DNA of 64,000 nt from Escherichia coli (GTDB lineage: Bacteria; Pseudomonadota; Gammaproteobacteria; Enterobacterales; Enterobacteriaceae): assembly GCF_001677475.2 (NCBI RefSeq), contig NZ_CP015229.1. One strand, given 5' to 3'. A program made the position numbers. Of the stretch, positions 58,757 through 61,700 are shown one piece after another. Every line of letters starts with the position of its first letter. Position 1 is the first letter of the stretch.

Positions 58757-61700
58757 TAACAAAAGCAATTTTTCCGGCTATCTGTATACAAAAACGCCGC
58801 AAAGTTTGAGCGAAGTCAATAAACTCTCTACCCATTCAGGGCAATATCTCTCTTGCAGGTGAATGCAACGTCAAGCGATGGGCGTTGCGCTCCATATTGT
58901 CTTACTTCCTTTTTTGAATTACTGCATAGCACAATTGATTCGTACGACGCCGACTTTGATGAGTCGGCTTTTTTTTGCCTGTTATTTATCAGCGTCTACC
59001 CTTTAAGAGTCCACCCAATGACCGGAGGGAAATATGACGACACTTATTTATTTGCAAATTCCTGTCCCTGAACCGATTCCTGGCGATCCTGTTCCAGTGC
59101 CCGATCCGATCCCTCGCCCGCAACCCATGCCTGACCCACCACCCGACGAAGAACCGATTAAATTGTCGCATCGTGAGCGTAGATCTGCGAGGATACGCGC
59201 CTTCTAACTTTGCGTCGATGACCACGAGAATAGATTGTGACCGCTTTTTCTACCCTGAATGTTTTGCCTCCCGCCCAACTCACGAACCTTGATGAGTTGG
59301 GTTATTTAACCATGACGCCGGTGCAGGCCGCCGCGCTTCCGGCGATCCTTGCCGGAAAAGATGTTCGCGTGCAGGCGAAAACCGGCAGCGGCAAAACGGC
59401 GGCTTTTGGCCTCGGCTTGTTACAGCAAATTGATGCGTCGCTATTTCAAACCCAGGCTTTAGTGCTGTGTCCTACGCGTGAACTGGCGGATCAGGTAGCA
59501 GGCGAATTGCGTCGGCTGGCGCGTTTTTTGCCAAATACCAAAATTTTGACGTTGTGCGGTGGTCAACCGTTCGGTATGCAGCGTGATTCGTTGCAACATG
59601 CGCCGCATATTATCGTGGCAACGCCGGGTCGTTTGCTGGATCACTTGCAAAAAGGCACGGTATCACTGGATGCGTTGAATACGCTGGTGATGGATGAGGC
59701 AGACCGCATGCTGGATATGGGATTTAGCGACGCCATTGATGATGTCATCCGTTTTGCGCCAGCATCTCGACAGACGCTTCTGTTTTCGGCAACCTGGCCG
59801 GAAGCCATCGCCGCAATCAGCGGACGAGTGCAACGCGATCCTTTAGCGATTGAAATTGACTCAACAGATGCTCTGCCACCTATTGAACAACAATTTTATG
59901 AGACATCCAGCAAAGGCAAAATTCCGTTGTTGCAACGGTTATTAAGTTTGCATCAGCCATCCTCTTGCGTGGTGTTTTGCAATACCAAAAAAGATTGCCA
60001 GGCTGTCTGCGACGCGCTGAATGAAGTAAGGCAAAGTGCATTGTCGTTACACGGCGATCTGGAGCAACGTGATCGCGATCAGACACTGGTACGTTTTGCT
60101 AACGGTAGCGCCCGTGTACTGGTTGCGACTGATGTTGCTGCGCGAGGTCTGGATATTAAATCGCTTGAGCTGGTGGTGAACTTTGAGCTGGCGTGGGATC
60201 CTGAAGTTCATGTACATCGCATCGGTCGCACAGCGCGTGCAGGAAATAGCGGTCTGGCGATCAGTTTCTGTGCTCCGGAAGAAGCACAGCGGGCCAATAT
60301 CATTTCTGACATGTTGCAGATAAAACTTAACTGGCAAACGCCGCCAGTTAATAGTTCCATTGTGCCGCTGGAAGCCGAAATGGCAACGTTATGTATCGAT
60401 GGCGGGAAAAAAGCCAAAATGCGCCCGGGTGATGTATTAGGTGCGCTGACAGGAGATATCGGGCTTGATGGCGCAGATATTGGCAAAATCGCCGTGCATC
60501 CGGCGCATGTCTATGTCGCGGTGCGTCAGGCTGTTGCTCATAAAGCATGGAAACAGTTACAGGGCGGGAAGATTAAAGGAAAAACGTGCCGGGTGCGGTT
60601 ATTAAAATAATGAAATGTTGAATTGCCGGGTGCAAGAGTAAACATCTTCTTCGGCATTGCCGGATGCGACGCTGACCGCGTCTAATCGGGCTACATAAGA
60701 GTAGCCCGATAAGCTTGCGCATCGGGCGCTATCCTGTTATTTCACTTCAACCACATTCAGCCGTAACTCATCCAACTGATTTTCATCTTCTTCAGGCTGC
60801 CAGCCCGCCGGTTGTAGTGGGATCTCTTCGCGATCAAACGCCAGATCACCCCCGTTAACCACTTCAGAACCGTGGGTAATGCCTTTGAAATCGAACAGGT
60901 TGGTATCGCACAGATGCGACGGCACCACATTCTGCATCGCGCTGAACATCGTCTCGATACGCCCCGGATAACGTTTATCCCAGTCACGCAACATGTCAGC
61001 AATCACCTGACGTTGCAGGTTAGGCTGTGAACCGCACAGGTTGCACGGAATAATCGGGAACGCTTTTGCATCGGCAAACCGCTGAATATCTTTCTCGCGG
61101 CAGTAGGCCAGCGGACGAATAACGATATGTTTGCCATCATCGCTCATCAGTTTCGGAGGCATACCTTTCATCTTGCCGCCGTAGAACATATTTAAGAACA
61201 GCGTCTGCAGGATATCGTCACGATGGTGACCCAGCGCGATCTTCGTCGCCCCCAGTTCCGTTGCGGTACGATAAAGGATACCGCGACGAAGGCGAGAACA
61301 CAGTGAGCAAGTGGTTTTGCCCTCTGGAATCTTCTCTTTCACGATACCGTAAGTGTTCTCTTCAACAATCTTGTACTCAACGCCCAGCTTTTCAAGATAC
61401 TCGGGCAGAACGTGTTCCGGGAAACCCGGTTGCTTTTGATCGAGGTTAACAGCCACCAGCGAAAAATTGATTGGCGCGCTTTGCTGCAAATTGCGCAGAA
61501 TCTCCAGCATGGTATAGCTGTCTTTACCCCCTGAGAGGCAAACCATGATGCGATCGCCTTCTTCAATCATATTGAAGTCAGCAATGGCTTCGCCCACGTT
61601 ACGACGCAGACGTTTTTGTAATTTGTTCAGGTTGTATTGTTCTTTCTTTGTAATTTGTTGATTTTCTTGCATTATTTCAGTTCTCTGGTACTAAATGGGG

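What the first reader, a model, noticed from the sequence alone, without database searches (positions are those of the whole stretch)
58806..58976. FnrS small RNA with an upstream FNR box
A 122-nt transcript unit ending in a strong intrinsic terminator matches my recollection of FnrS. A near-consensus FNR site sits at about -41.5 relative to its 5' end. The listed 72-aa ORF at 58853-59071 overlaps it and is probably not a real protein-coding gene.
Basis: partly seen in the sequence, partly recalled or inferred. Interest (0 to 1): 0.35.

Follow-up and report, generated by a model that had tools for sequence, protein, structure and literature searches.

The report
FnrS small RNA, already known

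Summary
Confirmed and already known. Window 58855-58976 (+) matches the Rfam FnrS model (RF01796) over its full length at 134.8 bits, against a gathering score of 60 (E 4e-24). It is 122/122 identical to the annotated fnrS gene (b4699) of E. coli K-12 MG1655 and sits in the same zntB - fnrS - ynaL - dbpA context. The FNR box TTGAGCGAAGTCAA lies at 58806-58819. It matches 8 of 10 consensus positions and keeps the TTGA-N6-TCAA core. Counted from the annotated +1 its centre is -42.5, not -41.5, which agrees with a published FNR ChIP-seq table. Its distance to the -10 hexamer is that of a standard class II FNR promoter. As a bare motif the box is not rarer than chance. However, it is held at a fixed position in 113 Enterobacterales loci while the flanking promoter DNA diverges. 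The terminator (58949-58968 plus eight T) shows many compensatory changes. The 72-aa ORF (58853-59071) is not a gene: its TTG start is kept in only 12 of 108 distinct relatives, and its length ranges from 14 to 116 codons. FnrS is an Hfq-dependent, anaerobically induced RNA that represses mRNAs by base pairing. Nothing new was found, so interest is low.

The parts
58790..58794 (+). Conserved A-tract at -65 to -61, upstream of the FNR box. It may be a contact for the RNA polymerase alpha C-terminal domain, or part of another regulator's site. This role is inferred and was not tested.
   Evidence: Columns -64 to -61 are A in 74-92% of 113 loci, while neighbouring columns are 30-50% conserved.
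58806..58819 (+). FNR binding site TTGAGCGAAGTCAA, centred at -42.5 from the annotated +1. It occupies the place of a -35 element, as in class II activation.
   Evidence: locate the site. Positions -48 to -46 and -39 to -36 are 89-99% conserved in 113 Enterobacterales loci. [quoted passage not shown]
58842..58847 (+). -10 hexamer CAATAT at -13 to -8, preceded by a conserved G at -14.
   Evidence: G-14, C-13, A-12 and T-8 are 96-99% conserved. No promoter with two sigma-70 hexamers was found in 58600-59300, which fits an activator-dependent promoter.
58855..58976 (+). fnrS gene, the 122-nt FnrS small RNA.
   Evidence: Rfam RF01796 at 134.8 bits, E 4.4e-24, model positions 1-119 of 119. 122/122 identical to MG1655 b4699.
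58855..58900 (+). 5' stem-loop, nt 1-46: an inner helix pairing nt 10-18 with nt 27-35, and an outer helix pairing nt 1-4 with nt 43-46. The 5' end (G4, G5 = 58858-58859) is one of the published target-pairing regions.
   Evidence: Rfam structure line, RNAalifold consensus with G-C to G-U and C-G to U-A changes, and the fnrS-III mutant (G4C, G5U) cited in PMC8595263.
58901..58915 (+). Single-stranded C/U-rich linker, nt 47-61 (CUUACUUCCUUUUUU). This is the main seed for mRNA pairing and a likely Hfq contact.
   Evidence: Unpaired in both the Rfam and the RNAalifold structures. Published pairing mutants fnrS-I (U57-59) and fnrS-II (C47 U48 U49) map here.
58916..58941 (+). Second stem-loop, nt 62-87.
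   Evidence: Rfam structure line and the single-sequence minimum-free-energy fold.
58949..58976 (+). Intrinsic terminator: stem-loop 58949-58968 followed by eight U (58969-58976). The U tail is a typical Hfq-binding 3' end.
   Evidence: Terminator scan. Three stem pairs show compensatory changes, in 42, 29 and 29 of 97 sequences.

Best explanation
The locus is fnrS, the gene for the Hfq-dependent small RNA FnrS, driven by a class II FNR-activated promoter.

Proposed mechanism:
1. Without oxygen, the [4Fe-4S] FNR dimer binds TTGAGCGAAGTCAA (58806-58819). This site replaces a -35 element.
2. FNR recruits sigma-70 RNA polymerase to the weak -10 element CAATAT (58842-58847).
3. Transcription starts at G58855 and stops at the intrinsic terminator, giving a 122-nt RNA that ends at 58976.
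4. The RNA has a 5' hairpin, a single-stranded C/U-rich linker, a second hairpin, and a terminator hairpin with a U tail.
5. With Hfq, the 5' end and the linker pair with the translation-initiation regions of mRNAs for functions not needed anaerobically. iscR is shown in the 2024 PNAS paper I read. sodB, maeA, gpmA, folE, folX and cydDC come from Myers 2013 Table 5 and my memory of Durand & Storz 2010 and Boysen 2010. Pairing blocks translation and lowers mRNA levels, which extends the FNR regulon to negative targets.

Shown here: identity of the sequence, the covariance-model match, conservation of the promoter elements, structural covariation, synteny, and lack of coding constraint.

Taken from the literature on the identical K-12 sequence: FNR occupancy, anaerobic induction, Hfq dependence and the targets.
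For: -: RF01796 match at 58855-58972, 134.8 bits against a gathering score of 60, E 4.4e-24, full model; it is the only Rfam match with E up to 1 in 58300-59500.
- 122/122 identity to MG1655 ncRNA fnrS (b4699), with the same neighbours zntB, ynaL and dbpA.
- the locus is present in 5392 of 5426 complete E. coli genomes at 95% identity or more.
- 113 Enterobacterales loci keep the box at the same distance from the invariant GCAGGTGAAT start. The commonest forms are TTGAGCGAAGTCAA, TTGAGCAATATCAA and CTGATCGATATCAA. They also keep G-14, C-13, A-12 and T-8, while the remaining promoter columns are 30-55% conserved.
- compensatory changes occur in the terminator stem (A-U to G-C in 42 sequences; C-G to U-A or G-C in 29). 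Structure-preserving changes occur in the 5' hairpin (G-C to G-U in 11; C-G to U-A in 3).
- zntB lies immediately upstream on the same strand in 108 of 118 loci.
- Myers 2013 report an FNR ChIP-seq peak upstream of fnrS with a site at -42.5.
- FnrS is FNR-controlled, expressed anaerobically, Hfq-assisted, and represses iscR by pairing with its 5' UTR.
- the published pairing-mutant numbering matches this sequence.
Against: - Nothing substantive argues against it.
- The single-sequence fold is not unusually stable (z = -1.67; 14 of 200 shuffles fold as well). Thermodynamics alone would therefore not have identified the RNA.
- The FNR motif on its own, at up to 2 mismatches, is not rarer than chance in the window.
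- The relatives were retrieved with a pattern that fixes 18 bases of the 5' hairpin. Invariance of those columns is partly by construction.
- Expression, FNR dependence and Hfq binding were not, and cannot be, measured for this particular strain with these tools.
Confidence: 0.98

Rival explanations
1. The region encodes a protein: either the 72-aa ORF from TTG 58853 to 59071, or the 47-aa ORF from ATG 58863 to 59006.
For: - Both ORFs exist.
- The ATG at +9 is kept in 106 of 108 distinct relatives and is preceded by AGGTGA.
Against: -: the TTG start of the 72-aa ORF is TCG or CCG in 88 of 108 relatives and TTG in only 12. The length of that reading frame ranges from 14 to 116 codons.
- the ORF from +9 ranges from 1 to 142 codons.
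- indels of 1, 2 and 4 nt in the U-rich linker shift the frame.
- In Yersinia aldovae (L004), two wobble-preserving changes in the hairpin create a stop at codon 2.
- The commonest substitution (C34U, 11 sequences) keeps the RNA pair as G-U but would change Ala to Val.
- AGGUGA abuts the AUG with no spacer, which is not a workable Shine-Dalgarno spacing (established knowledge).
- Both ORFs run through the terminator.
- Neither is annotated in K-12 or in RefSeq genomes.
Confidence: 0.01
2. The RNA is not an independent gene. It would be a processed 3' UTR of zntB, or a 5' leader or attenuator of ynaL-dbpA.
For: - fnrS follows zntB on the same strand in 108 of 118 loci, 95 nt after its stop codon in this window.
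- ynaL starts 58 nt after the terminator.
Against: - A conserved FNR box and -10 element lie at a fixed distance from the invariant 5' end, between zntB and the RNA.
- There is an FNR ChIP-seq peak at this promoter in K-12.
- dbpA is downstream in only 41 of 118 loci, and ynaL in 9, so the RNA is conserved independently of them.
- The strong terminator with a U8 tail is conserved through covariation.
- A minority of read-through transcripts from zntB, or into ynaL, is not excluded.
Confidence: 0.01

Closest known systems
FnrS (Rfam RF01796; E. coli K-12 b4699)
   Same: - Identical 122-nt sequence.
- Same promoter, including the FNR box and the -10 element.
- Same terminator.
- Same flanking genes.
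   Different: Nothing within the gene or promoter. The nearest differences from K-12 are single bases at 58780 (upstream of the A-tract) and 59024 (between the terminator and ynaL).
Class II FNR-activated promoters (e.g. narK, caiF and bssR at -41.5; ydhY at -42.5)
   Same: - An inverted-repeat TTGA-N6-TCAA site replaces the -35 element.
- The site centre lies 29.5 bp upstream of the first base of the -10 hexamer.
- The promoter is activator-dependent, with a weak -10 element.
   Different: - Both half-sites deviate at the fifth base, reading TTGAG and GTCAA instead of TTGAT and ATCAA.
- The centre is -42.5, not -41.5, when counted from the annotated start. The same value is listed for ydhY in Myers 2013.
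Other Hfq-dependent, regulon-extending sRNAs (RyhB for Fur, OxyS for OxyR, ArcZ for ArcA)
   Same: - A transcription factor that mainly activates transcription gains negative targets through a base-pairing sRNA.
- The sRNA has a U-rich single-stranded seed and a terminator with a U tail.
   Different: These are unrelated in sequence and respond to different signals. FnrS and OxyS act in opposite directions on iscR.

Membership tests
FnrS sRNA (Rfam RF01796) | Scores above the curated gathering threshold of the covariance model over its full length | tested here: met
   134.8 bits against a gathering score of 60, model positions 1-119 of 119, E 4.4e-24. Repeated locally with E 8.3e-26.
FnrS sRNA (Rfam RF01796) | Sequence identity to the type gene, E. 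coli K-12 fnrS b4699 | tested here: met
   122/122 identical, and the whole promoter from -74 is also identical.
FnrS sRNA (Rfam RF01796) | 5' hairpin, single-stranded U-rich linker, second hairpin and intrinsic terminator, supported by covariation | tested here: met
   RNAalifold on 97 distinct sequences recovers the 5' hairpin and the terminator. Five pairs have double changes. The second hairpin is seen in the Rfam structure and the single-sequence fold, but the consensus fold did not recover it.
FnrS sRNA (Rfam RF01796) | Genomic context immediately downstream of zntB (ydaN) | tested here: met
   zntB is at 57776-58759 in the window. zntB lies upstream on the same strand in 108 of 118 loci.
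FnrS sRNA (Rfam RF01796) | Non-coding: no conserved reading frame | tested here: met
   Start codons and ORF lengths are not conserved, and frame-shifting indels occur.
FnrS sRNA (Rfam RF01796) | Anaerobic, FNR-dependent expression | not testable with these tools
   Reported for the identical K-12 sequence: an FNR ChIP-seq peak (PMC3688515) and expression in anaerobiosis (PMC11572966).
FnrS sRNA (Rfam RF01796) | Hfq-dependent base pairing with target mRNAs | not testable with these tools
   From the literature only: gel-shift assays with Hfq and iscR and pairing mutants.
Class II FNR-dependent promoter | FNR site resembling TTGAT-N4-ATCAA | tested here: met
   TTGAGCGAAGTCAA matches 8 of 10 positions with the core TTGA-N6-TCAA exact. 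It is one of only two such cores in 64 kb and is conserved in 113 loci.
Class II FNR-dependent promoter | Site centred near -41.5, overlapping the -35 region | tested here: met
   The centre is -42.5 from the annotated +1 (58855). It lies 29.5 bp from the first base of the -10 hexamer, as in canonical -41.5 promoters. Myers 2013 list -42.5.
Class II FNR-dependent promoter | No autonomous sigma-70 promoter, meaning a poor or absent -35 hexamer | tested here: met
   The consensus scan finds no two-hexamer promoter in 58600-59300.

The most novel reading that the evidence does not exclude
FnrS might be dual-function, also producing a short peptide from the conserved AUG at +9 (58863) that follows AGGUGA. 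The first 16-17 codons are conserved across genera.
Probability: 0.02. Interest if true: 0.4.

Novelty: already known. Interest (0 to 1): 0.04.

Why it matters
It matters only as a correct annotation. FnrS extends the FNR anaerobic regulon to repressed targets, and it has been characterised since 2010. The window adds no new biology. The comparative data collected here restate its known strong conservation across Enterobacterales. They also show that the overlapping ORFs should not be annotated as genes.

Tried and rejected
- **Motif statistics for the FNR box.** At up to 2 mismatches there are 47 matches against 37 expected. The motif alone is therefore not evidence. I relied instead on position, the exact core and conservation.
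- **Thermodynamic stability of the single sequence.** The z-score is -1.67, which is not distinctive.
- **Coding hypotheses for the 72-aa and 47-aa ORFs.** Both were rejected.
- **Other RNA families on either strand of 58300-59500.** None was found at E up to 1.
- **Primary papers.** I tried to read Durand & Storz 2010 and Boysen et al. 2010 by PubMed id and by PMC id. They are not held. Statements about them rest on citing papers and on my memory, and are marked as such.
- **False hits in the genome scan.** Two pattern hits, a cyanobacterial MAG (L042) and a Dechloromonas MAG (L061), are chance matches and were excluded.

Full report
**Observation**

An Rfam scan of the whole window gives a full-length match to RF01796 (frnS/FnrS) at 58855-58972 on the + strand. 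The score is 134.8 bits against a gathering score of 60, with E 4.4e-24. A permissive local scan of 58300-59500 on both strands finds nothing else.

The MG1655 record annotates ncRNA fnrS (b4699) at 1409129-1409250, between zntB and ynaL/dbpA. An alignment shows that window 58855-58976 is 122/122 identical to it. The promoter is also identical back to -74. The window ORFs confirm the same neighbours:
- zntB at 57776-58759
- ynaL at 59034-59207
- dbpA at 59237-60610

The locus is present at 95% identity or more in 5392 of 5426 complete E. coli genomes.

**Promoter**

The FNR box TTGAGCGAAGTCAA lies at 58806-58819. It matches the consensus TTGAT-N4-ATCAA at 8 of 10 positions.

As a bare motif this is not significant. 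The window holds 47 matches with up to 2 mismatches, against 37 expected. The exact core TTGA-N6-TCAA, however, occurs only twice in 64 kb.

The decisive evidence is comparative. A pattern scan of one genome per species returned 120 stretches. Of these, 113 usable loci across Enterobacterales begin with the invariant GCAGGTGAAT. They include Escherichia, Citrobacter, Enterobacter, Klebsiella, Serratia, Yersinia, Erwinia, Pantoea, Pectobacterium, Dickeya, Edwardsiella, Hafnia and Arsenophonus.

In ungapped register with that start:
- Positions -48 to -46 and -39 to -36 are 89-99% conserved.
- G-14, C-13, A-12 and T-8 are 96-99% conserved.
- Most other promoter columns are 30-55% conserved.
- Many genera carry the full consensus right half-site ATCAA.

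The box centre (58812.5) is at -42.5 from +1 = 58855, not -41.5. Myers et al. 2013 list the same -42.5 and an FNR ChIP-seq peak for fnrS (PMC3688515). The -10 hexamer CAATAT occupies -13 to -8. The spacing from box to -10 element (29.5 bp) is therefore the canonical class II spacing. No promoter with two sigma-70 hexamers is found in the region, as expected for an activator-dependent promoter. Published mutant numbering (G4, G5, C47 U48 U49, U57-59) fits +1 = G58855 (PMC8595263).

**RNA structure**

An alignment of 97 distinct homologues and its consensus fold recover the 5' hairpin and the terminator.
- Three terminator pairs show compensatory changes in 42, 29 and 29 sequences.
- The 5' hairpin shows G-C to G-U in 11 sequences and C-G to U-A in 3.
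- The terminator in the window is 58949-58968, followed by eight T.

Two caveats apply. The retrieval pattern fixed 18 bases of the 5' hairpin, so invariance there is partly by construction. The single-sequence fold energy is unremarkable (z = -1.67).

**Coding potential**

The 72-aa ORF (58853-59071) has its TTG start in only 12 of 108 distinct relatives; 88 have TCG or CCG instead. Its frame length varies from 14 to 116 codons.

The ATG at +9 is conserved, but the ORF from it is 1 to 142 codons long. Indels of 1, 2 and 4 nt in the U-rich linker shift the frame. In Yersinia aldovae, two wobble-preserving hairpin changes create a stop at codon 2. The commonest substitution keeps the RNA pair but would change the amino acid. 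The constraint is therefore on the RNA, not on a peptide.

**Context**

zntB lies immediately upstream on the same strand in 108 of 118 loci. dbpA is downstream in only 41, and ynaL in 9. The RNA is thus conserved with its own promoter and terminator, independently of the downstream genes.

**Mechanism**

Under anaerobiosis, FNR binds the box and activates transcription of the 122-nt RNA. With Hfq, the 5' end and the single-stranded C/U-rich linker (58901-58915) pair with the translation-initiation regions of target mRNAs and repress them.

This rests on literature for the identical K-12 sequence:
- FnrS is FNR-controlled, expressed anaerobically, pairs with the iscR 5' UTR with help from Hfq, and lowers iscR translation and mRNA (PMC11572966).
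- Eleven operons are indirectly FNR-repressed through FnrS (PMC3688515).
- Details from Durand & Storz 2010 and Boysen et al. 2010 are from memory, because those papers were not held.

**Verdict**

This is the known fnrS gene. Novelty is none and interest is low.

Noticed in passing
window 45011-45796 (- strand): The fnr gene itself (250 aa, [10 protein letters not shown]...) lies at 45011-45763 on the minus strand, about 13 kb from fnrS. The only other exact TTGA-N6-TCAA core in the window (TTGATATTTGTCAA, 45783-45796) sits 20 nt upstream of its start codon. This is presumably the fnr autoregulatory site, which I recall from memory.
   Followed up: partly
window 51893-51988 (- strand): Full-length Rfam match to McaS/IsrA sRNA (RF00115): 113.5 bits against a gathering score of 42.
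   Followed up: no
window 63280-63458 (+ strand): Full-length Rfam match to RalA (RF02694), the antitoxin sRNA of RalR: 222.2 bits against a gathering score of 170. From memory, this places the window end in the rac prophage.
   Followed up: no
window 59034-59207 (+ strand): The small proline-rich protein gene ynaL differs at two bases from K-12 and from the best-matching complete genome I aligned (strain 7/2). The change at 59147 is synonymous. The change at 59203 turns the last residue from Cys to Phe. No complete E. coli genome matched 58700-59250 better than 99.6%.
   Followed up: partly
window 58790-58794: An A-tract at -65 to -61, followed by CG, is conserved upstream of the FNR box in most of 113 loci. 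Its role was not determined. It could be an alpha-CTD contact or a site for a second regulator.
   Followed up: no
window 58857-58865: AGGUGA directly abuts a conserved AUG at the 5' end of FnrS. It looks like a start site, but there is no spacer, and the downstream frame is not conserved.
   Followed up: yes
L025, L070, L086, L088, L115, L121: In Rahnella, Rouxiella and related genera, zntB is not upstream of fnrS. It lies downstream on the opposite strand, which indicates a local rearrangement.
   Followed up: no
L043 (Photorhabdus asymbiotica) 3843-3949: The 5' half of FnrS is conserved, but the 3' half and the terminator are divergent or were not captured by my end-finding rule. This could be a variant or a decaying copy.
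   Followed up: no
L052, L016, L048: MAGs labelled only 'Proteobacteria bacterium' carry FnrS that is identical or nearly identical to the Escherichia/Enterobacter type. These contigs are enterobacterial.
   Followed up: no
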